From positions 1 to 60,658 of the IMG/VR virus record IMGVR_UViG_3300042868_014229: DNA of 60,658 bases; one strand, given 5' to 3'. Numbering within the stretch: the first letter of the stretch is position 1; each line of letters opens with the position of its first letter. The position numbers and the translations under genes are program-made. Below, piece after piece: positions 6,826 to 60,000 of this stretch. This DNA comes from a virus (taxonomy: Duplodnaviria; Caudoviricetes). The notes beneath the pieces were generated by a model. That model was given only the letters and a program-made list of their open reading frames with translations, was not told the origin of the DNA and ran no database searches.

Positions 6826-7038
6826 TTACTTATTTTTAGAAATTAATTCTTCCAACTCTTGAAAGTCTTCGTCACGTACAGCTTCTTTATCATAATACAC
6901 ATAACTACTACAAGTTGGTGGCATTACAAATTGTATCTCAATAGAGAAATTACTCACACTACCCTTGGCAATGTTGCTAATGTTTTTTGGTTCTGCTAAA
7001 AGTGTTTTTAGGTCAGAGTTAAGACTTTTGTTCTTCAT
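6826..7038 (-). CDS. hypothetical protein
   Basis: 70-aa ORF. Confidence 0.55.
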   Translation of the reverse strand: MKNKSLNSDLKTLLAEPKNISNIAKGSVSNFSIEIQFVMPPTCSSYVYYDKEAVRDEDFQELEELISKNK

Positions 7039-7462: not shown

Positions 7463-7673
7463 TTACACACCCTATCAAGATTGGGATAATCGTGCAGGCC
7501 CAAACCCCAACACTCCAGTCAGTCATCTCTCTCCACCAGTAGTGGCTGATGCTTAATGATTATCTTACTCAACACACATGACGTGTCTTGATTCTTGTCA
7601 TAATATGGCATCTAACGGGACCAGCCTATTTTATTCACCGCCTTGTATTACTTGTTTGTCTTTCTATGTGTAA
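7463..7673 (-). ncRNA. putative structured ncRNA (about 210 nt), family unknown
   Basis: GC-rich gap; nested stems TTACACAT/GTGTGTAA, ATCAAGA/TCTTGAT, GATAATC/GATTATC; followed by terminator. Confidence 0.55.
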
Positions 7674-7680
7674 TGGTTTC

Positions 7681-8274
7681 TTAGTTAGCAGCATCTAACC
7701 TTGCCATAAGAGCTTTCAATTGCTCTTGTGTTGCAACGTCAACTATCGCTAACTTATTCACTGGTTGTGTAAAGTGTAATGGAACCGTAGCTACAATGTA
7801 ATGCATGTTATGCTCGATATAGATATCTTCTGGTGTAAATCCGAATACTGCATCACCGTTTGTTCCATATGAACCATCTTCTGCAGGTGAAGGTAGCGTA
7901 GAATAATTCCCAGCTTCATAACTAGAATTTTTAACAATTTGTTCAGTGTTTGTCAATTGAGAGTTAACGCTAGATACTTTGTTTACTTGGTAATATCCAA
8001 TCGGAGCCGAAACACCTTCATTGAAGATATACATGTAGAACATTACACTTCTATCGTTTTGCAACTTGAAACGTTTGATAAGGTTATCACGTTCAAGTGA
8101 CCATGTAATTCTTGGTGCTGGTTGAACTTGGTTCAGGTTTTGTTGATTAATTTCAGTGTGAGCTTGTTCATCTCTTGCTGATGTGTTTCTCGGTCTTGTC
8201 TCTTCACAACTTGAAGCTACTAATAACGTAACAAATACAAATACCATTGTGAATTTTCCTAATACTTTTTTCAT
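7681..8274 (-). CDS. lipoprotein
   Basis: LVASSC lipobox; PSPAEDGSYGTN motif. Confidence 0.7.
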   Translation of the reverse strand: MKKVLGKFTMVFVFVTLLVASSCEETRPRNTSARDEQAHTEINQQNLNQVQPAPRITWSLERDNLIKRFKLQNDRSVMFYMYIFNEGVSAPIGYYQVNKVSSVNSQLTNTEQIVKNSSYEAGNYSTLPSPAEDGSYGTNGDAVFGFTPEDIYIEHNMHYIVATVPLHFTQPVNKLAIVDVATQEQLKALMARLDAAN

Positions 8275-45446: not shown

Positions 45447-46010
45447 TTACTTCATTTTATAATCTTTTTTACTTCCGTCAGCTTTTGAATAAACAATCTT
45501 TGAAGGTTCCATTTCCATATTAACCAAATCTTTAGCTTTCTTTATGTATTTTGCTGCCTTTCCTGGTTTTAAATACGCTATTGTACAATGTGGATGATAA
45601 TCTGGGAAGTTGCTAGTAAACGGATATTCTTTAAATACCTTATTCAATTTATGCAAGTCTTTGCTTTCAACATCAAACTTCAATACATCGTATTTAGGAT
45701 TATCAAAGGAAGAAATCGATTTAAAAGCGATTTTAGGCTCTTTAATTTCGTTTATGTCTTCTTCTATATCTTCGTCCTCGATGTCGTCATGTAGGCCATA
45801 TAATATGGTTACGTGAGGTTCATCTTCTCTACCATAACTGTTGTCACCTTCTTCGGTGTATAGGTCATCTTCGTCAATCATGTCTTGTAGTTCTTCCCAT
45901 GATTCTTCGTTTACATCTAGGAAAACCATAAGGCATCCATATTCATGTTTATGGTCTTTTTTTTCAGCTTCGGTAAGCAAAGCTTTTCTTACTAATTTAC
46001 GTATATTCAT
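45447..46010 (-). CDS. 2H phosphoesterase, Acb1/T4 gp57B-like
   Basis: HVTILYG and PDYHPHCTIAY (two HxT); start reassigned to MNIRKLVRK. Confidence 0.8.
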   Translation of the reverse strand: MNIRKLVRKALLTEAEKKDHKHEYGCLMVFLDVNEESWEELQDMIDEDDLYTEEGDNSYGREDEPHVTILYGLHDDIEDEDIEEDINEIKEPKIAFKSISSFDNPKYDVLKFDVESKDLHKLNKVFKEYPFTSNFPDYHPHCTIAYLKPGKAAKYIKKAKDLVNMEMEPSKIVYSKADGSKKDYKMK

Positions 46011-46047
46011 AATAATTCTTTTATATGTAAATATACGAATATAAAAT

Positions 46048-46074
46048 AAAAAATCCATGCTTTCACATGGATTT
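46048..46074 (-). terminator. intrinsic terminator
   Basis: AAATCCATG-ctttca-CATGGATTT. Confidence 0.6.
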
Positions 46075-46352: not shown

Positions 46353-46419
46353 AAAATAGAGGACTTTCACCTCTTGGACATGGTTTGTTTCGCCTAAGTC
46401 GCCACGTCAACAGACCCAG

Positions 46420-46492
46420 AGCGAGTGAAGGGATTCGAACCCTCGACAACCTAATTGGTAATCAGGTGCTCTACCAACTGAGCTACACTCGC
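46420..46492 (-). tRNA. tRNA-Gly(ACC)
   Basis: Canonical cloverleaf; CCTGA-TTACCAA-TTAGG; GCG acceptor end, U73. Confidence 0.85.
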
Positions 46493-46629
46493 ATTTATGC
46501 CTCTCTCTGCATCCGTCACACCCCATTTGTATTCTGTTAATCTCCTAAGACCGTTTGCTACGCTTGACATTAAGCCTCAGCCCTTAAAAGGATTTTCCTA
46601 ACGGTAAATCGGTGTCAAAAACCAGTATA

Positions 46630-46896
46630 TCATTTCAAGTTGATTTTACCAACTATCTTGAAACCTTGTGGTTTCCATTTTTCTTTTTCTTTGTCGCTTA
46701 TAGTGTTGCCATTTCTACCAACATGAAACTTGTAACATGTTTTGCATTTGTAAGCAACAACTTTAAACTTTCTATCTGGCAAAGCATTAACGCTTTTTGC
46801 GTGTTTGATAGCTGATTCTAAATCATTAAATTGTCTTTTAGGTTTATCAACCAATTGACCATTTATTCTATCTACTGTTTGAGTTGTACAATCCAT
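46630..46896 (-). CDS. Zn-binding hypothetical protein
   Basis: AYKCKTCYKFHVG. Confidence 0.7.
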   Translation of the reverse strand: MDCTTQTVDRINGQLVDKPKRQFNDLESAIKHAKSVNALPDRKFKVVAYKCKTCYKFHVGRNGNTISDKEKEKWKPQGFKIVGKINLK

Positions 46897-46933
46897 ATCT
46901 TTATAATTTATTTCGCAAAGATATGAAGTTTTT

Positions 46934-47125
46934 TTAATTTACCAAATCATTGTAAGTTTTTTTTTCAGAAACTGATGCAAATTGATTAATCATAAGACGA
47001 TGTGCTTCCCATGCTTCTGCTATTGCTACTTTAGCATCTTCTAAATCTCTAGCCCACGTAACTACTTCGATTTCTGGTATGGTTATTTTAATAAAACCAT
47101 CAAAACTTTTCCTAAATTCCATCAT
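46934..47125 (-). CDS. HicB-like small protein
   Basis: IPEIEVVTWARDLEDAKVAIAEA resembles HicB N-terminal fold. Confidence 0.45.
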   Translation of the reverse strand: MMEFRKSFDGFIKITIPEIEVVTWARDLEDAKVAIAEAWEAHRLMINQFASVSEKKTYNDLVN

Positions 47126-47138
47126 TTTAAATTATTAG

Positions 47139-47210
47139 AGCACATAGACGGAACTGACCCGACAACTGAGGGTTACAAATCCCCTATTTTTCCTGTTAAA
47201 CTATACGTGC
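47139..47210 (-). tRNA. tRNA-Thr(TGT), atypical T-loop
   Basis: Loop TTTGTAA; T-loop GTCAGTT. Confidence 0.7.
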
Positions 47211-47219
47211 ATATTTTTG

Positions 47220-47301
47220 TGGGGCACACAGGATTCGAACCTGCTCAGCCGAAGCACCAGTTTTACAGACTGGCCCAACTCTCCTACGTTGGCGGTACCC
47301 C
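47220..47301 (-). tRNA. tRNA-Tyr(GTA)
   Basis: CCAGT-CTGTAAA-ACTGG, long variable arm. Confidence 0.85.
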
Positions 47302-47302
47302 A

Positions 47303-47371
47303 GATAGAACAGAGAGATATTGTTTCAAATTAAAAGTTTGTTTTTGTTAATTGCTGAAATCTCTCTTTATC
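47303..47371 (-). ncRNA. minimal stem-CAGCAA RNA with Lys-type anticodon loop
   Basis: GATA.AGAGAGAT-TTCAGCAA...AAA-CTTTTAA-TTT...ATCTCTCT-GTTC-TATC. Confidence 0.65.
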
Positions 47372-47374
47372 TTG

Positions 47375-47445
47375 TTGGGATACAAGGATTCGAACCTTGA
47401 CGGACTGGCTCAAAACCAGTAATGCTACCGTTACATCATATCCCA
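47375..47445 (-). tRNA. tRNA-Gln(TTG)
   Basis: ACTGG-TTTTGAG-CCAGT; U1-A72. Confidence 0.88.
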
Positions 47446-47448
47446 AAA

Positions 47449-47504
47449 TTTCTAATTCTATGCAAACACTTTTCCGTGTGGGTCCCTATGAATTAGTAAC
47501 AGTC
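47449..47504 (-). repeat. inter-tRNA hairpin element copy 1
   Basis: GACTGTTACTAATTCATAG-N-GCATAGAATTAGAAA. Confidence 0.75.
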
Positions 47505-47512
47505 CTTTCTCG

Positions 47513-47586
47513 TGCAGATAGTGAGATTCGAACTCACGAAGTCCTGATTGGAAGTCAGGTGCAATTGGCCACTATGCGACATCTGC
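47513..47586 (-). tRNA. tRNA-Gly(TCC)
   Basis: CCTGA-CTTCCAA-TCAGG. Confidence 0.88.
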
Positions 47587-47589
47587 AAT

Positions 47590-47643
47590 TTTCTAATTCT
47601 ACGCTTCGAGTTCTTCACGGTCTTCTATGAATTAGTAACAGTC
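47590..47643 (-). repeat. inter-tRNA hairpin element copy 2
   Basis: GACTGTTACTAATTCATAG-N-GCGTAGAATTAGAAA. Confidence 0.75.
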
Positions 47644-47652
47644 TCTTCTCAG

Positions 47653-47725
47653 TCTAAGTAGCAGGGCTCGAACCTGCGGTCTCATGGTCCCAAACCATGC
47701 GGAATACCAACTTTCCCACACCTAG
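47653..47725 (-). tRNA. tRNA-Pro(TGG)
   Basis: CATGG-TTTGGGA-CCATG; C1-G72, A73. Confidence 0.88.
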
Positions 47726-47789
47726 ATTAATGTGTTCATTATTTATGAGTGTTCATTGTCAATGAACATGTAATTATATTGAACACTTG

Positions 47790-47864
47790 TGCATCCACTG
47801 GGGCTCGAACCCAGACAGCCCATATTAAAAGTATGGTGCCTTATTCCATTTTGGCTATAGATGC
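47790..47864 (-). tRNA. tRNA-Lys(TTT)
   Basis: CCATA-CTTTTAA-TATGG. Confidence 0.88.
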
Positions 47865-47880
47865 AATTTTATTTGTCTTG

Positions 47881-47952
47881 TAGCCCCAACGGGAATCGAA
47901 CCCATTTTCCTCGGTTAAAAGCCGAGTACATCGCCAGCAATGTTTTGAAGCC
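47881..47952 (-). tRNA. tRNA-Lys(TTT), divergent
   Basis: CTCGG-CTTTTAA-CCGAG; A at position 8, several G-U acceptor pairs. Confidence 0.75.
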
Positions 47953-47988
47953 ATAGTTATTACTATCCCTTCAACGCATTGAAGGCGG

Positions 47989-48024
47989 TTAGTGTTTACT
48001 CTTTATGTTCTTTATCTTTTTCAT
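47989..48024 (-). CDS. Lys-rich mini-ORF MKKIKNIKSKH
   Basis: 11 codons, 5 Lys, followed by a hairpin and two tRNA-Lys genes. Confidence 0.35.
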   Translation of the reverse strand: MKKIKNIKSKH

Positions 48025-48040
48025 AATTTTTATTTTCTTG

Positions 48041-48112
48041 TCGGGTTTAAAGGATTCGAACCTTTATCGAGCAGCCGCATGCCGCCCAGTTTGCCAATTA
48101 ACGTATTACCCG
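48041..48112 (-). pseudogene. pseudo-tRNA (loop CATGCGG)
   Basis: Good T-arm; acceptor mismatches; A33. Confidence 0.6.
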
Positions 48113-48138
48113 AATTGTTATTATTTTATTCTATTTTG

Positions 48139-48214
48139 TCGAGTGAGTGGGATTCGAACCCACGTGCTCTAGCGTCCAAGGCCAGCGAGATAGACCTGAC
48201 TCCTCTACCACTCG
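48139..48214 (-). tRNA. tRNA-Pro(TGG)
   Basis: CTGGC-CTTGGAC-GCTAG; C1-G72. Confidence 0.85.
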
Positions 48215-48233
48215 TTTGTTAATTTTGTTGCAT

Positions 48234-48267
48234 AAAAAAACCCAGTTTAGATTTCTCTAACTGGGTT
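48234..48267 (-). terminator. attenuator terminator upstream of tRNA array
   Basis: AACCCAGTTAG-AGAAAT-CTAAACTGGGTT plus U-tract. Confidence 0.85.
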
Positions 48268-48291
48268 AATAAATAATACTTGCGTATTGTT

Positions 48292-48393
48292 TTACTTTAT
48301 CATGTTTGACTTCATGACATACCCAGTTGTGCCTTTAGGCGTTCCGCCTTGAGGTTGATACTGTTTCGTTTGATATGTTTTTGTTGTCATCAT
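48292..48393 (-). CDS. putative attenuator leader peptide MMTTKTYQTKQYQPQGGTPKGTTGYVMKSNMIK
   Basis: Promoter-proximal 33-codon ORF; codons 3-25 only T/K/Y/Q/P/G; contains AACTGGGT complementary to the terminator 5' arm. Confidence 0.75.
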   Translation of the reverse strand: MMTTKTYQTKQYQPQGGTPKGTTGYVMKSNMIK

Positions 48394-48429
48394 TGTTTCT
48401 AATTTTGTGGGTTTTACCCTGTTTGTTTA

Positions 48430-48470
48430 ATAAATATATGCAAATGTACGAAAGTTTTTTAATTAATCAA
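48430..48470 (-). promoter_or_regulatory. promoter of leader/tRNA operon (-7 TACATTTG at 48441-48448, upstream TTG, adjacent TATTTAT)
   Basis: Matches Bacteroidota -33/-7 layout. Confidence 0.65.
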
Positions 48471-49820: not shown

Positions 49821-50642
49821 TTATGACTTAAGTAACAATTCTTTTATATCAGAAACAAGTTGTCTGTGACCCTCACCGTAAGGTTGCCATGCTAATCCCA
49901 TTGCTTTAAGGTCATAGTGTTTCAAGATTGTTGAATAATTTGTTTCTCCTTCTGGAAATCCGATTACATAAATACTATCAGCCAACTCAGCAGCCAAACG
50001 GATATCGTGAGTAGAGAATATAATAGTATTCAATTCATCAGCAGCAGTAATTTTATTGAATGATTGCTTAACCTTTTCAATGTTTCCAACATCTAACCCA
50101 GAAAATGGTTCATCTAGAATCATAAAGTGTTTAGATGTAAGCATTTGCTCAATGATTGCCGTTCTTTGTCTTTGTCCACCAGATAACTCACATGAGTATT
50201 TATCTTTATGTTCCAACAATCCCCAATCCGTTAGATACTCATTAATAATAGCATCTTTTTCGGGCTTGGTAGCTGTTGATTTTCTCAAAGCATATTCACA
50301 TATCTGCGTAATGGTTTTGTGTCTAAAAAGCGTGTATTTTTGGTCTACAAACCCCATATCACCCTCACCCAATGGCTTGGCATCATCATCAGCTTCTGTT
50401 GTCAAGTCCGTGATAAGGACTTGACCTTGTGTTGGTTTAAGCAAACCTGTTAGTCCTTTGAAAAGGGTTGATTTACCTCTACCAGAACGACCAATAAACG
50501 CAATTACCTGACCAGTTGCATCGTGACCATCTCTAACAATATCTTTGATGTCAAAATTAACATTTTTAAGTATTGTTTTTCCATCGTAACCTAAACTTAC
50601 ATCATTGATGTACAATAGGGTTTTTGTTTCTTTATAACTCAT
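49821..50642 (-). CDS. ABC transporter ATP-binding protein (TauB/SsuB-like)
   Basis: GRSGRGKST, LSGGQRQR, ILDEPFSGLD. Confidence 0.92.
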   Translation of the reverse strand: MSYKETKTLLYINDVSLGYDGKTILKNVNFDIKDIVRDGHDATGQVIAFIGRSGRGKSTLFKGLTGLLKPTQGQVLITDLTTEADDDAKPLGEGDMGFVDQKYTLFRHKTITQICEYALRKSTATKPEKDAIINEYLTDWGLLEHKDKYSCELSGGQRQRTAIIEQMLTSKHFMILDEPFSGLDVGNIEKVKQSFNKITAADELNTIIFSTHDIRLAAELADSIYVIGFPEGETNYSTILKHYDLKAMGLAWQPYGEGHRQLVSDIKELLLKS

Positions 50643-50778
50643 GGTTTCTTTTTTCTAATTTAATGATTTTTTCTTTCAAAACTTTGTTTTCATCCCTTTC
50701 TGCATGAAAAGCTAAACAATACATAACCGCAGACATTATAGCACAAACCAACAGAAAAATTAATTTATTTTCTTTCAT
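50632..50778 (-). CDS. small membrane protein (48 aa)
   Basis: Manually translated; TM plus short coiled segment. Confidence 0.45.
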   Translation of the reverse strand: MKENKLIFLLVCAIMSAVMYCLAFHAERDENKVLKEKIIKLEKRNHEL

Positions 50779-50782
50779 AATC

Positions 50783-51559
50783 TTAATAATTTGAATATCT
50801 AAACGCTAATTTGCGTAGTTTGGTTAATAAAAAGTCCAAGGCAACACCTACCAAGATGATTACAGCTTGAACTGCGATAACTCTACCATTAGAACCTAAA
50901 CGGTCACCATTCTTGATAAGAACTCCCAGACCACCTGCAGCGATAAGAATACTCTCAACGGTTACAAGCATAACCCATACGATTGCTAAGTTTTGTCTAA
51001 CCAATTCGATTACATAATCTATTCGACCTTTGATAACAACTTCCCAAAGCATTTCCCATCTATTACACCCAAGTGTTTTAGCATGGTCAAATTCTTCTTG
51101 TGGAATGTCTTTAATCATTTGAATAAGACTTGTAATAAGGAATGTTGACATGAAGATAACAAGTACCCATACTTGTATTGCTCTTGCATCTGACATCATA
51201 ATCGTAACATAGAAAGCAATTCCAGTTGGTGGTAAGTATCTTAATTTTGATAAGAACGTTCCTAGCGACTTAGAGAAGGCAATTGTTGTTAAGTAAGCGA
51301 AAATCATCGAGATAATCACTGAATAAAATATGGCTTGGAAACACAATGATAGTGAACTACCTAAATGTGTAATAAGACCTTCTTGCCATACATCACCCAA
51401 ACCTTTAAATACTTGTGCAGGTGTTGGGAATAAATGTGTTGTTCCAATTGAACCTGACACAAACCAAATTGATACTAATAAGGCTAACCATATCAATACA
51501 ATTATATTTTTTGTTAAACCATTAAGGTTTCTAAACGGTGTGAATATTTTTTTAAACAT
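50783..51559 (-). CDS. ABC transporter permease (TauC/SsuC-like)
   Basis: FPTPAQV, AKTLGCNRW EAA-like loop, GGLG. Confidence 0.85.
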   Translation of the reverse strand: MFKKIFTPFRNLNGLTKNIIVLIWLALLVSIWFVSGSIGTTHLFPTPAQVFKGLGDVWQEGLITHLGSSLSLCFQAIFYSVIISMIFAYLTTIAFSKSLGTFLSKLRYLPPTGIAFYVTIMMSDARAIQVWVLVIFMSTFLITSLIQMIKDIPQEEFDHAKTLGCNRWEMLWEVVIKGRIDYVIELVRQNLAIVWVMLVTVESILIAAGGLGVLIKNGDRLGSNGRVIAVQAVIILVGVALDFLLTKLRKLAFRYSNY

Positions 51560-56912: not shown

Positions 56913-57057
56913 GATAACAAGATTAACTTTTTTCTTTTTCGTGCTCTAACCAACTGAGCTAACCGCCCAGTAATATCGGACAGTATGGGACTCGAACCCA
57001 TGACAACGAGCTTAACAGGCTATAGATTTTTTGTTGCTGAAATAATCTTTTTTTATC
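56913..57057 (-). ncRNA. circularly permuted tRNA-Asn-like RNA inside a stem-CAGCAA module (YrlA-like topology)
   Basis: Order: AAGATTA-TTTCAGCAA, AGC-CTGTTAA-GCT, T-arm, ACTGTCC-loop-GGGCGGT, D-arm, TAATCTT. Confidence 0.8.
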
Positions 57058-58335: not shown

Positions 58336-58408
58336 TGGTGCGAGCTGGATTCGAACCAGCGACACCTGCCTCTTCAGGGCAGTGCTCTACCAACTGAGCT
58401 ATCGCACC
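58336..58408 (-). tRNA. tRNA-Phe(GAA)
   Basis: CTGCC-CTGAAGA-GGCAG. Confidence 0.9.
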
Positions 58409-58566
58409 TTGTGTTAGTTATGTCTGTAGGACTTCTGACATAATTCCCTATGATTATCTTTTTACAACCCCTCATAGAACTAACGTTTTTATTTATGCAA
58501 ATATATACATAACATTTCAATTAAACAAGTTTTTATTTAAACTTTTTTTAATTATTTTATAACTTG

Positions 58567-58639
58567 TTGAGAGAGAGGGTTTCGAACCCTACGCTACCAC
58601 CCGTCTAGGTGGCCTTCTAACCAATTAAAGTATCTCCCA
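58567..58639 (-). pseudogene. tRNA-like element with 6-nt anticodon loop
   Basis: TGGGAGA/TCTCTCA; CCACC-TAGACG-GGTGG; TTCGAAA T-loop. Confidence 0.6.
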
Positions 58640-59878: not shown

Positions 59879-60000
59879 CGGACACGGCAGGATTCGAACC
59901 TACATCTTTTTCGTGAAAGGAAAATTAACATTTAATGCTGCAGATAACCTTATCAGGTTATGACTTGTTTTATAACATGCTACCATTACACCACGTGCCC
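59879..60000 (-). ncRNA. tRNA-Glu-like RNA with inserted stem-CAGCA module
   Basis: GGGCACG/CGTGTCC; D-arm; ATAACCT-GATA-AGGTTAT-CTGCAGCA; TTTTC-CTTTCAC-GAAAA; T-arm. Confidence 0.75.

What the first reader, a model, noticed from the sequence alone, without database searches (positions are those of the whole stretch)
46420..48470. Leader-peptide attenuator whose codons match the downstream phage tRNA array
Seen: on the minus strand the order is promoter (-7 TACATTTG at 48441-48448), a 33-codon ORF (48393-48292, MMTTKTYQTKQYQPQGGTPKGTTGYVMKSNMIK), an intrinsic terminator (48267-48234), then the tRNA array. Codons 3-25, 23 in a row, encode only Thr, Lys, Tyr, Gln, Pro or Gly. The intact tRNAs downstream are Pro x2, Lys x2, Gly x2, Gln, Tyr and Thr: the same six amino acids and no others. 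Inside the ORF, AACTGGGT (48328-48321) is complementary to the terminator 5' arm ACCCAGTT. This alternative stem encloses two sub-hairpins (TGTCATG/CATGATA and AATAC-GCAA-GTATT with a GNRA loop) and excludes the terminator. Established: trp/his/ilv-type attenuation uses this architecture. Inference: when any of these host tRNAs is depleted or cleaved (for example by anticodon-nuclease defence), the ribosome stalls early, the antiterminator forms and the phage transcribes replacement tRNAs. This would be a multiplexed tRNA-damage sensor; I do not know of one described for a phage tRNA operon.
Basis: partly seen in the sequence, partly recalled or inferred. Interest (0 to 1): 0.95.

Follow-up and report, generated by a model that had tools for sequence, protein, structure and literature searches.

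The report
Codon-matched leader attenuator before phage tRNAs
A short translated leader and a switchable terminator sit in front of a phage tRNA gene array, and the leader is written almost only in codons read by those tRNAs, so the phage probably makes these tRNAs only when they run short; no published example turned up.

Summary
No experiment was available.

**In the window (minus strand):**
- a Bacteroidota-type promoter, a 33-codon ORF (48393-48292), an intrinsic terminator (48267-48234) and the tRNA array are all as described
- the 23-codon run of Thr/Lys/Tyr/Gln/Pro/Gly is unique in the window; the next longest run in six frames is 9
- AACUGGGU in the ORF pairs with the terminator 5' arm

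**In relatives:**
- The same leader recurs in 26 of 26 related loci (15 distinct sequences). It is always followed by tRNAs of these six amino acids. Three loci add His; the window adds a doubtful Ala.
- Related phages carry other leaders of the same build, each matching its own array: Phe/Glu/Asp/Ala, Cys/Val/Leu, and Ser/His/Trp/Ile/Met/Asn/Arg. The cultured Cellulophaga phage phi4:1 has three more.
- Matched leader-array pairs give runs of 8-23 codons and mismatched pairs at most 6. This is the best of 5040 permutations.

**Reading:** ribosome stalling on these codons frees the antiterminator and lets the tRNA genes be transcribed. A trigger by anticodon nucleases is untested. Seven literature searches found no precedent.

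The parts
48441..48470 (-). Bacteroidota-type promoter: TTG (48470-48468), 19-nt spacer, TAnnTTTG (48448-48441). The transcript probably starts near 48434 (inferred).
   Evidence: Read. The same CTTGA-N19/20-TAnnTTTG cassette precedes every leader module found. The name and spacing of the promoter consensus are recalled knowledge.
48409..48419 (-). Small 5'-UTR hairpin (GGGU-AAA-ACCC) near the transcript start.
   Evidence: Predicted. A hairpin at the same place with different stem letters occurs in relatives and in leader types B and C (sequences). Function unknown.
48292..48393 (-). Leader ORF, 33 codons plus stop.
   Evidence: An ORF is kept in 26 of 26 type A loci despite in-frame 3-nt indels and a 1-nt frame change before the tail.
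48319..48387 (-). Regulatory codon run, codons 3-25: only Thr, Lys, Tyr, Gln, Pro and Gly.
   Evidence: unique run of 23. (substitutions stay in the set).
48343..48375 (-). Computed responsive window, codons 7-17 (Y Q T K Q Y Q P Q G G), which holds all six amino acids.
   Evidence: A 30-nt ribosome mask with its A site here lowers P(terminator) from 0.85 to 0.23-0.60 and raises P(antiterminator) from 0.01 to 0.28-0.71. Codon 14 is the exception (0.77 and 0.09).
48360..48378 (-). Region 1, in two segments: ACAUAUC (48378-48372) and CAGU (48363-48360). They pair with region 2 and its 3' neighbours and so act as the anti-antiterminator.
   Evidence: MFE. These letters are invariant in 15 distinct sequences, so they give conservation only, not covariation.
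48332..48354 (-). Hairpin 1 inside the ORF (CCU..AGGCG-GAA-CGCCU..AGG).
   Evidence: Three of 8 pairs change on both sides in relatives; 1-20 of 500 shuffles reach the three both-sided-change and covariation measures, 180 of 500 the pair-type count.
48321..48328 (-). Region 2, AACUGGGU: a copy of the terminator 3' arm that pairs with the 5' arm to form the antiterminator.
   Evidence: Paired in 15 of 15 distinct sequences. The nucleotides are conserved although they are read in another frame in 5 of the 15 sequences.
48268..48319 (-). Spacer with two hairpins (48319-48298 and 48296-48268; the second has a GNRA loop) and the stop codon (48294-48292). The antiterminator helix encloses it.
   Evidence: Relatives have other hairpins at the same place.
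48234..48267 (-). Intrinsic terminator: 5' arm 48267-48256, loop 48255-48252, 3' arm 48251-48239, U tract 48240-48234.
   Evidence: Paired in 15 of 15 distinct sequences.
47138..48214 (-). Regulated tRNA array: Pro(UGG), a degenerate Ala-like element, Lys(UUU) x2, Pro(UGG), Gly(UCC), Gln(UUG), Tyr(GUA), Thr(UGU). The first tRNA starts 20 nt after the U tract.
46419..46492 (-). tRNA-Gly(ACC), 70 bits. It lies beyond two small ORFs (47125-46934 and 46896-46630) that have a TAnnTTTG motif (TATCTTTG) of their own, so it may be a separate transcription unit.
   Evidence: In relatives Gly(ACC) sits inside the array.

Best explanation
This is a ribosome-mediated (trp/his/ilv-type) transcription attenuator that controls a phage tRNA sub-operon.

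**Proposed mechanism.** Transcription starts at a Bacteroidota-type promoter, and the 33-codon leader is translated while RNA polymerase moves on.

- If charged tRNAs for Thr, Lys, Tyr, Gln, Pro and Gly are plentiful, the ribosome runs through to the stop codon. Region 2 is then masked or re-pairs with region 1, the terminator (regions 3:4) forms 20 nt before the first tRNA gene, and transcription ends.
- If any of these tRNAs is scarce, the ribosome stalls on codons of about 7-17. That breaks the 1:2 pairing but leaves region 2 free. Region 2 captures the terminator's 5' arm (2:3), and polymerase reads into the array.

The products of the operon are the tRNAs that the leader's codons call for. 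The circuit is therefore a negative feedback that holds the supply of a defined group of tRNAs at what phage translation needs.

**Wider picture.** Related phages split their tRNA genes into several such groups, each with its own codon-matched leader.

**Shown by sequence and comparison:**
- the parts of the element and their mutually exclusive pairings
- conservation of the parts
- the match between leader codons and array content

**Inferred:**
- that the leader is translated
- that transcription and translation are coupled
- the direction of the switch
- the physiological trigger
For: **1. Anatomy.** It is as described, with strong folds.

**2. The codon run.** The run of 23 is unique in six frames of the window; the next longest is 9.

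**3. Conservation of type A.**
- All 26 type A rows carry the ORF, the terminator and a downstream array: the window, 8 loci from viral contigs and 17 from metagenome contigs (15 distinct sequences). These came from pattern scans and a protein scan.
- 22 rows list only tRNAs of the six amino acids. Three add His; the window adds ARAGORN's Ala.
- The order of tRNAs differs between contigs while the set stays the same.

**4. Other leader types of the same build** (promoter, short ORF, region 2 equal to the terminator 3' arm, terminator, array). Peptide segments are quoted.

| Type | Leader segment | tRNAs downstream |
|---|---|---|
| B | FDIAFFAAEED | Phe, Glu, Asp, Ala |
| C | VVVLLVLCLLV | Cys, Val, Leu |
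| D | INIHMISISNWRRNSH | Ser, His, Trp, Ile, Met, Asn, Arg |
| E (phi4:1) | QRLHLQELEQP | Pro, Glu, Gln, His, Leu, Leu, Arg |
| F (phi4:1) | TKTGITVIDKTKGARA | Ala, Lys, Ile, Gly, Met, Asp, Thr, Val, Arg, Met |
| G (phi4:1) | YNNSNWSFSY | Tyr, Ser, Asn, Trp, Phe |

- Two more modules occur in Tenacibaculum phage Gundel_1.
- Type B was found with its array in 9 of 11 pattern hits.

**5. Leader-by-array matrix.**
- The diagonal is 23, 8, 11, 16, 11, 16, 10; all off-diagonal values are 6 or less.
- The true assignment is the single best of 5040 permutations.
- Per-module run probabilities are 2e-4 to 1.6e-11; Fisher combined is 1.6e-35.

**6. One phage, all 20 amino acids.** In one 233-kb contig (G005), leaders A-D together govern tRNAs for all 20 amino acids.

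**7. Substitution pattern.** In codons 3-21 of type A, 14 of 21 distinct nonsynonymous states stay within the set, against 22% expected (p 1.3e-5). There are 7 synonymous states.

**8. Antiterminator in other types.**
- With the 3' arm removed, the terminator 5' arm pairs with the ORF segment just after the codon run in 9 of 10 modules.
- The duplex beats shuffles in 5 of 7 types (p 0.006-0.024; Fisher 8.5e-5).

**9. Coordinated change.** One position changes on all three strands: region 2 A to G, region 3 U to C, region 4 A to G in L010, with G-U intermediates in two sequences.

**10. Ribosome-mask folding.** Only A-site positions 7-17 favour the antiterminator.

**11. Stop-codon position.** In types B, C, E and F the stop codon lies 4-12 nt after region 2, which is the textbook masking geometry (positions).

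**12. Specificity of the architecture.** All 19 terminators that lie 63 nt or less upstream of a tRNA in the loci scanned belong to such modules. One of the 19 is cut at a locus edge.

**13. Weak hints.**
- Short metatranscriptome contigs from 4 of 4 runs laid cover the leader.
- Rfam's Phe_leader model gives a sub-threshold hit (27.9 bits, E 0.054) on a Gundel_1 module.
Against: - **No direct data.** Nothing shows translation, termination or read-through. The contigs cannot show RNA ends and may include DNA.
- **Little covariation within type A.** The 2:3 and 3:4 stems hardly vary: one varying pair, and 104-105 of 500 shuffles do as well. My search patterns fixed parts of these stems, which biases towards invariance.
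- **Types B and F.** Their region 2:3 complementarity is no better than shuffles (p 0.84 and 0.77), and type E shows none in the MFE.
- **Stop-codon distance.** In types A, D and G the stop codon lies 26-31 nt after region 2, so a terminating ribosome would not cover region 2.
- **Default state uncertain.** Equilibrium folding of the transcript before region 4 emerges predicts the antiterminator even without a ribosome (0.97). The resting state and the direction of the switch therefore rest on kinetic argument.
- **Matching is not perfect:**
  - His tRNAs sit in three type A arrays and four type B arrays without His codons in the leader.
  - An Ala codon occurs in the L022 and L017 leaders without an Ala tRNA.
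  - The L015 leader has Asn, Phe and Arg codons and keeps Lys, Gln, Thr and Gly codons, but only Tyr and Pro tRNAs follow it.
- **Codon level is looser still:**
  - CCU is used against Pro(UGG).
  - GGC has no GCC anticodon in the array.
  - ACA and ACG codons stand against Thr(GGU) in L004 and L025.
- **Many tRNAs lack a leader.** 14 of 26 array starts or internal restarts examined have none.
- **Coupling in Bacteroidota.** To my knowledge, coupling of transcription and translation has not been demonstrated in Bacteroidota.
Confidence: 0.8

Rival explanations
1. Same attenuator hardware, but a different purpose. It is a damage sensor that switches on replacement tRNAs when a host anticodon nuclease or another tRNA-depleting defence cleaves host tRNAs.
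For: - The mechanism would respond to any loss of cognate tRNA (inference).
- A 2H phosphoesterase / LigT / Acb1-like gene lies just downstream of the array at 45447-46058. Such enzymes can act on RNA ends or defence signals.
- Phage tRNAs as a counter to tRNA-targeting defences are proposed in PMC10264068. I saw only its listing, the start of its abstract and one search for terms within it.
Against: - Nothing in the sequence is specific to damage.
- The modules together cover all 20 amino acids in one phage. That fits general supply control better than a response to nucleases, which as I recall hit a few tRNA species.
- The leader cannot tell cleavage from low abundance or amino-acid starvation.
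Confidence: 0.2
2. The element works with the opposite or another polarity. Either efficient translation of the leader promotes read-through (positive feedback or a translation checkpoint), or the structures act in RNA processing or stability of the tRNA precursor rather than in termination.
For: - With a ribosome mask at codons 30-34 and region 4 not yet made, the model still gives the antiterminator at 0.83-0.96 (steric effects are ignored).
- In types A, D and G the stop codon is 26-31 nt beyond region 2.
Against: - In types B, C, E and F the stop codon is 4-12 nt after region 2, the classical masking geometry.
- In the full transcript only stalls at codons 7-17 favour the antiterminator.
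- A hairpin with a U tract 6-63 nt before the first tRNA is present in all modules.
Confidence: 0.1
3. The ORF encodes a small functional protein with its own promoter and terminator. It only happens to be syntenic with the tRNA array.
For: A peptide motif (TY.KQYQPKGG.P.G) is conserved across type A.
Against: - At least seven unrelated peptides each match their own array.
- The C-terminal tails differ completely, and the conserved AACUGGGUAUG is read in two frames.
- Nonsynonymous changes keep the amino-acid set rather than the sequence.
- The leader DNA is far more conserved than the neighbouring protein, which is 71-77% identical.
Confidence: 0.04
4. Chance ORF. The hairpin is simply the terminator of the upstream UVR-motif gene, or the 3' end of a non-coding RNA.
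For: - No terminator was found between the upstream gene (48984-48535) and this hairpin.
- Short ORFs are common in AT-rich DNA.
Against: - A promoter lies between the gene and the ORF.
- The ORF is kept in 26 of 26 loci with in-frame indels.
- The run of 23 is unique.
- The design recurs before other arrays.
Confidence: 0.02

Closest known systems
Leader-peptide attenuators of amino-acid biosynthetic operons (trpL, hisL, leuL, thrL, ilvL, pheL of enterobacteria); recalled knowledge
   Same: - Promoter-proximal short ORF with a cluster of regulatory codons.
- Regions 1:2, 2:3 and 3:4 with mutually exclusive pairing.
- An intrinsic terminator before the regulated genes.
- Sensing of several amino acids at once also has a precedent, in ilvL (Leu, Val, Ile) and thrL (Thr, Ile).
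   Different: - The regulated genes are tRNA genes, not enzymes, so the sensed molecule is the operon's own product.
- Six to nine amino acids are sensed by one leader.
- The stop codon is 26 nt beyond region 2 in this type.
- The setting is a phage and a Bacteroidota-type promoter without a Shine-Dalgarno sequence.
- No Rfam leader family matches the window's element at E<=1.
T-box riboswitches; recalled knowledge
   Same: They couple tRNA status to a terminator/antiterminator decision.
   Different: - T-boxes bind uncharged tRNA directly, need no translation, and control aminoacyl-tRNA synthetase and amino-acid genes, mainly in Firmicutes.
- Here there is an ORF and no T-box hit.
Phage tRNA arrays as codon compensation or counter-defence (PMC10264068 and PMC6409571; I saw listings, abstract starts and term searches only)
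   Same: The same class of genes. Cellulophaga phage tRNA clusters are described as blocks of isotypes (passage).
   Different: Term searches in both papers found no mention of leader, attenuator, terminator or promoter. Regulation of the arrays is not addressed there.
Cysteine-responsive polycysteine short-ORF attenuators of mycobacteria (bioRxiv 10.1101/834739; listing and abstract start only)
   Same: Short ORFs rich in one codon type regulate downstream genes through ribosome stalling.
   Different: - They sense a single amino acid.
- They are leaderless mRNAs.
- They control protein-coding operons.
- They are not in a phage and do not govern tRNA genes.

Membership tests
Ribosome-mediated leader-peptide transcription attenuator | Short ORF close to the promoter and upstream of the regulated genes | tested here: met
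   ORF 48393-48292, about 40 nt after the inferred start. It is kept in 26 of 26 loci.
Ribosome-mediated leader-peptide transcription attenuator | The leader is translated | not testable with these tools
   Indirect only: in-frame indels, 7 synonymous states and set-preserving changes.
Ribosome-mediated leader-peptide transcription attenuator | Cluster of regulatory codons cognate to what the operon supplies | tested here: met
   Run of 23 codons. The matrix diagonal is 8-23 against 6 or less off the diagonal.
Ribosome-mediated leader-peptide transcription attenuator | Intrinsic terminator between the leader and the regulated genes | tested here: met
   -14.6 kcal/mol with a U7 tail, 20 nt before tRNA-Pro.
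Ribosome-mediated leader-peptide transcription attenuator | Antiterminator pairing that excludes the terminator and depends on ribosome position | tested here: met
   Paired in 15 of 15 sequences, but only one covarying pair. Across types, 5 of 7 beat shuffles.
Ribosome-mediated leader-peptide transcription attenuator | 1:2 pairing that sequesters region 2 when no ribosome is stalled | tested here: inconclusive
   Present in the MFE with probability 0.80. Its letters are invariant, so there is no covariation. Hairpin 1, which it encloses, does covary.
Ribosome-mediated leader-peptide transcription attenuator | Regulated genes are amino-acid biosynthesis or transport genes | tested here: not met
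   tRNA genes follow. This is the point of novelty.
Curated Rfam leader families (His, Leu, Thr, Trp, Phe leaders, Bacteroid-trp) | Match to the covariance model | tested here: not met
   No hit at E<=1 on 48225-48470. The only related signal is a sub-threshold Phe_leader hit on a Gundel_1 module.
T-box riboswitch | Match to the T-box model (specifier loop, T-box sequence) | tested here: not met
   No hit at E<=1.

The most novel reading that the evidence does not exclude
Phages of Flavobacteriia divide their tRNA genes into regulons. Each regulon is governed by a leader peptide written in the codons of exactly the tRNAs it controls, and in one phage four leaders cover all 20 amino acids. The phage thus reads the host's decoding capacity codon group by codon group, through its own ribosome traffic. 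It tops up only the tRNA groups that are limiting, whether from codon mismatch with the host, from host shut-off, or from tRNA-cleaving defences. This would be the first autoregulated tRNA operon that senses its own product by translation.
Probability: 0.7. Interest if true: 0.92.

Novelty: new variant of a known kind. Interest (0 to 1): 0.9.

Why it matters
- **What is regulated.** Leader-peptide attenuation is a textbook mechanism, but it is known for genes that make or charge amino acids. Here the same hardware governs tRNA genes, so the sensed quantity is the operon's own product.
- **How many signals.** One leader integrates six or more tRNA species.
- **A new view of phage tRNAs.**
  - It gives a concrete, testable answer to how phages control their tRNA arrays, which are usually treated as constitutive cargo.
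  - It explains why tRNA isotypes are grouped in conserved blocks.
  - It supplies a natural sensor of decoding capacity that could be used as a reporter for tRNA depletion by defence systems.
- **Testable now.** The design occurs in cultured phages (Cellulophaga phage phi4:1, Tenacibaculum phage Gundel_1).
- **Annotation.** Small 'hypothetical proteins' annotated inside phage tRNA arrays may be leaders or tRNA-like elements. Examples are phi4:1 gp075, which spans leader F from an upstream start, and gp076, which overlaps a sub-threshold tRNA-like hit.

Tried and rejected
**Searches that gave nothing or very little**
- blastn of the region against the phage collection gave only tRNA-level matches. 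It was useful solely as a route to phi4:1, Gundel_1 and nt-1.
- The sigma-70 and terminator pattern scan missed the terminator because of its bulge, and it is not suited to Bacteroidota promoters.
- One of the 6 hits of the three-part pattern (L006) is an unrelated repeat without tRNAs.
- Two of the 11 type B pattern hits (L044, L048) are unrelated protein starts without tRNAs.
- The type A pattern found nothing in 185,579 species' genomes. No host or prophage copy is known in that exact form.
- My first fetch from G001 took the wrong stretch; I corrected it.

**RNA evidence**
- Only assembled contigs were available. They cover the leader in 4 of 4 runs laid, but they cannot show ends, strand or level.
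- Parts without cover there mean nothing.

**Outside the group**
- One phage outside Bacteroidota hosts was looked at: Vibrio phage nt-1.
- It has a hairpin 87 nt before its array but no leader ORF obvious by eye.
- This is one case, not analysed further, and is no evidence of absence elsewhere.

**Unresolved details**
- I could not assign the sub-threshold tRNA-like elements of Gundel_1 (27.8 and 25.7 bits; ARAGORN silent). My by-eye reading of their anticodons is not used as evidence.
- I could not assign the phi4:1 element at 7659-7732 (40.1 bits on the tRNA model; annotated as a pseudo-tRNA; ARAGORN silent), nor the sub-threshold tRNA-like hit at 6914-6999.

**Closed or unused tools**
- Supplements of papers were closed, so figures S3 and S4 of PMC6409571 on Cellulophaga tRNA blocks were not seen.
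- I did not use structure prediction, complex prediction or the large protein searches, because the question is about RNA and codons.

Full report
**1. The observation**

- TTG lies at 48470-48468. After 19 nt comes TACATTTG at 48448-48441.
- An A-rich 5' region follows, with a small hairpin at 48419-48409.
- The ORF runs 48393-48292 and encodes MMTTKTYQTKQYQPQGGTPKGTTGYVMKSNMIK.
- A hairpin with a U7 tail lies at 48267-48234.
- tRNA-Pro starts at 48214, 20 nt after the U tract.

The terminator folds at -14.6 kcal/mol, z -4.4. Without the terminator's 3' arm, AACUGGGU (48328-48321) pairs with ACCCAGUU. This closes a three-way junction over two hairpins at -20.4 kcal/mol, z -3.7.

ARAGORN lists ten tRNAs downstream: Pro, Ala, Lys, Lys, Pro, Gly(UCC), Gln, Tyr, Thr and, beyond two small ORFs, Gly(ACC). 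Rfam's tRNA model finds all of them except the Ala call at 48040-48112.

**2. Is it more than chance?**

- In all six frames of the 60,658-base window, maximal runs of residues from {T,K,Y,Q,P,G} fall off steeply. There are 2 runs of length 9, none of 10-22, and this one of 23.
- The set makes up 0.31 of residues in the phage's long ORFs. At that frequency a run of 23 in 32 codons has P about 1.6e-11.
- The 8-nt complement to the terminator arm beats 98.8% of dinucleotide shuffles.

**3. Relatives keep the whole module**

Four searches recovered related loci.

| Search | Result |
|---|---|
| Upstream 149-aa protein (UVR motif) against viral contigs | 2 contigs; protein 71-77% identical, leader nearly identical |
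| Three-part DNA pattern | 6 stretches, 5 with the leader (4 new loci; L003 is the contig of L001) |
| Pattern in the coding part | 8 stretches, all leaders |
| Looser pattern on metagenome contigs | 17 stretches, all leaders |

In the two contigs there is one in-frame 3-nt deletion and a Gln/Lys swap.

Taken together, 26 of 26 rows carry an ORF, a terminator and a downstream array. Some rows are the same contig filed twice; there are 15 distinct sequences.
- 22 rows list only tRNAs for the six amino acids.
- 3 rows (L017, L022, L026) add His.
- The window adds the doubtful Ala.
- L015, from a 340-kb contig, has only Tyr and Pro.

The order of the tRNAs differs among contigs. The set, and Pro in first place (L015 excepted, where Tyr comes first), stay.

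The same pattern found nothing in one genome each of 185,579 prokaryote species.

**4. What varies within type A**

The alignment A1 shows three things.
- The peptide tail after codon 21 is not conserved.
- AACUGGGUAUG is invariant, yet it is read in another frame in 5 of the 15 sequences. Its conservation is therefore at the RNA level.
- ACAUAU and AAACAG are invariant. In the MFE they pair with region 2 and its 3' neighbours, forming the 1:2 structure.

Stem statistics:
- The 2:3 and 3:4 helices are paired in 15 of 15 sequences. Only one pair varies: AU in 12, GU in 2, GC in 1.
- That pair changes in step on regions 2, 3 and 4.
- This is weak statistically, since 104-105 of 500 shuffles do as well. 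My patterns also fixed part of these stems.
- Hairpin 1 inside the ORF has 3 of 8 pairs with changes on both sides; 1-20 of 500 shuffles reach the both-sided-change and covariation measures, 180 of 500 the count of further pair types.

Coding statistics for codons 3-21:
- 7 distinct alternative codons are synonymous.
- 14 are nonsynonymous but stay inside the six-amino-acid set.
- 7 leave the set.
- Random single-base changes would keep 22% inside the set (binomial p 1.3e-5).

Selection therefore preserves which tRNAs are called for, not the peptide.

**5. Other leaders, other arrays**

I looked upstream of every array start in the fetched loci and scanned for terminators that precede tRNAs. 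This showed the same build with different content. The build is CTTGA-N19/20-TAnnTTTG, a short ORF, a copy of the terminator 3' arm inside the ORF, a terminator, then tRNAs.

| Type | Where | Leader peptide | tRNAs that follow |
|---|---|---|---|
| B | L002, L019, L023 | MRTLTNIFDIAFFAAEEDYSFGRSNTVIS (L019) | Phe, Glu, Asp, Ala |
| C | L019, L023 | MKNFNNVVVLLVLCLLVADRMGYAC (L019) | Cys, Val, Leu |
| D | L020 | MRTINIHMISISNWRRNSHQVSGMFNCEGGTEV | Ser, His, His, Trp, Ile, Met, Asn x3, Met, Arg x2, Ser |

- Type B was found with its array in 9 of 11 pattern hits; 4 of the 9 arrays add His.
- Type D is separated from its array by a 59-aa ORF.
- Contig G005 (233 kb) carries A, B, C and D, whose arrays together cover all 20 amino acids.

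Cultured phages have the design too. Cellulophaga phage phi4:1 (NC_021788) has three modules.

| Leader | tRNAs that follow |
|---|---|
| MKIQRLHLQELEQPIISGGTGV | Pro, Glu, Gln, His, Leu, Leu, Arg |
| a GTG-started ORF with TKTGITVIDKTKGARA | Ala, Lys, Ile, Gly, Met, Asp, Thr, Val, Arg, Met |
| MKTNYCTYNNSNWSFSY... | Tyr, Ser, Asn, Trp, Phe |

Tenacibaculum phage Gundel_1 has two modules. One of them gives a sub-threshold hit to Rfam's Phe_leader model (27.9 bits, E 0.054).

**6. Statistics of the match**

The measure is the longest run of each leader in each array's amino-acid set.
- The diagonal is 23, 8, 11, 16, 11, 16, 10. Every off-diagonal value is 6 or less.
- The true assignment is the single best of 5040 permutations. 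It is also the best of 24 and of 6 within the two phage groups.
- Per-module probabilities are 2e-4 to 1.6e-11; Fisher combined is 1.6e-35.
- Among 803 small ORFs of the same loci, only the leaders and their copies reach most of these values. For types E and F, the larger or commoner sets, one other ORF each does.

The modules were picked by architecture, not by composition. Of 33 hairpin-plus-U-tract sites with a tRNA within 900 nt, all 19 that lie 63 nt or less before a tRNA are leader modules. One of the 19 is cut by a locus edge.

**7. Alternative pairing in the other types**

- With the 3' arm removed, the terminator's 5' arm pairs with the ORF segment just after the codon run in 9 of 10 modules.
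- The duplex is better than shuffles in 5 of 7 types (p 0.006-0.024). It is not better in B and F (0.84 and 0.77). Fisher combined is 8.5e-5.
- The stop codon lies 4-12 nt after region 2 in types B, C, E and F, the classical geometry in which a terminating ribosome hides region 2. It lies 26-31 nt after region 2 in A, D and G (positions).

**8.

For the full transcript at equilibrium:
- With no ribosome, P(terminator) is 0.85 and P(antiterminator) is 0.01.
- With a 30-nt mask whose A site is on codons 7-17, P(antiterminator) is 0.28-0.71 and P(terminator) is 0.23-0.60. Codon 14 is the exception, at 0.09 and 0.77.
- With the A site on codons 2-6 or 18-34, the terminator stays at 0.82-0.86.
- Codons 7-17 (Y Q T K Q Y Q P Q G G) include all six amino acids.

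One caveat applies. Before region 4 is made, the model favours the antiterminator even without a ribosome (0.97), and it ignores steric effects. The resting state and the direction of the switch therefore rest on kinetic reasoning and on the geometry of the other types.

**9. Mechanism**

The best reading is a negative feedback loop.
- Scarcity of any of the six charged tRNAs stalls the ribosome in region 1.
- Region 2 then takes region 3, and polymerase reads into the tRNA genes.
- Once the tRNAs suffice, the ribosome clears the leader, 3:4 forms and transcription stops.

Shown by sequence and comparison: the parts, their exclusivity, their conservation, and the codon-to-array match. Inferred: translation, coupling, direction and trigger.

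A LigT/Acb1-like 2H phosphoesterase next to the array is the only hint in that direction.

**10. Results against**

- There are no direct expression data. The metatranscriptome contigs that cover the leader in 4 of 4 runs cannot show ends or strand.
- Covariation within type A is weak.
- Pairing in types B and F is not significant.
- Matching is imperfect, as set out in section 3 and in the Against line.
- 14 of 26 array starts or restarts examined have no leader. These include the window's second array (60459-57257), which follows a protein ORF at the contig end, and a promoter with a structured but ORF-less leader before tRNA-Phe at 58408.

**11. Novelty**

Seven full-text searches and term searches inside two papers on phage tRNAs found no description of leader peptides, attenuators or terminators controlling phage or cellular tRNA operons.

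The library lacks most subscription journals, and supplements were closed, so this is not proof of absence.

The mechanism class is textbook. The target, the self-sensing logic and the partition of a phage's tRNA set into codon-matched regulons appear new. I therefore rate it as a new variant of a known kind.

**12. Verdict**

- Confidence in the attenuator reading is 0.8.
- Interest is 0.9.

Noticed in passing
window 45447-46058 (-): A 203-aa protein of the 2H phosphoesterase / 2'-5' RNA ligase superfamily, also matching anti-CBASS Acb1, lies just downstream of the tRNA array. It may act in RNA-end repair or in counter-defence.
   Followed up: partly
window 58566-58639 (-); also L002 4080-4153 and L019: A tRNA with an 8-nt anticodon loop (ARAGORN anticodon 'agac') is conserved at the end of the Phe/Glu/Asp/Ala arrays in three contigs. 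It may be a frameshift-reading or otherwise unusual tRNA.
   Followed up: no
window 59879-60000 (-): A 122-nt match to the tRNA model (42 bits) that ARAGORN does not call. It looks like a tRNA with an insertion of about 50 nt, or an intron.
   Followed up: no
window 58409-58500 (-); same in L023 upstream of 2644: A TAnnTTTG promoter is followed by about 90 nt of hairpin-rich RNA without an ORF or a U tract, directly before tRNA-Phe. This is a second, leaderless way of driving single tRNAs.
   Followed up: partly
L023 2644 (anticodon tta) and L020 13173 (anticodon cta): Relatives carry suppressor-type tRNAs for UAA and UAG behind leaderless promoters. This hints at stop-codon reassignment or suppression in this phage group.
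   Followed up: no
window 46419-46492 (-): tRNA-Gly with anticodon ACC (A at position 34), scoring 70 bits. It recurs in relatives' arrays. A34 tRNAs are uncommon in bacteria.
   Followed up: no
window 56937-57009 (-): A sub-threshold match to the Y RNA-like YrlA family (38 bits against a gathering score of 69), with a tmRNA-end-like piece inside it.
   Followed up: no
window 49821-51559 (-): An ABC-transporter ATPase (Pfam ABC_tran, E 4e-25) lies next to a 258-aa hydrophobic ORF that looks like a membrane protein, possibly its permease. This is unusual cargo for a phage.
   Followed up: partly
L020 6100-6800 (-): In the type D module a 36-aa, very basic ORF (MATHKRVAHTRV...) lies between the promoter and the leader proper, and a 59-aa ORF lies between the terminator and the array.
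   Followed up: no
L009 4795-4914 and 6923-7024 (Cellulophaga phage phi4:1): The annotated 'hypothetical proteins' gp075 and gp076 inside the tRNA region are probably not proteins. gp075 spans leader F from an upstream start. gp076 overlaps a sub-threshold class II tRNA-like hit (29.3 bits).
   Followed up: partly
L025 5552-5959; L053 4427-4933; L023 near 9000: HNH-endonuclease-like ORFs sit inside the tRNA arrays of several of these phages.
   Followed up: no
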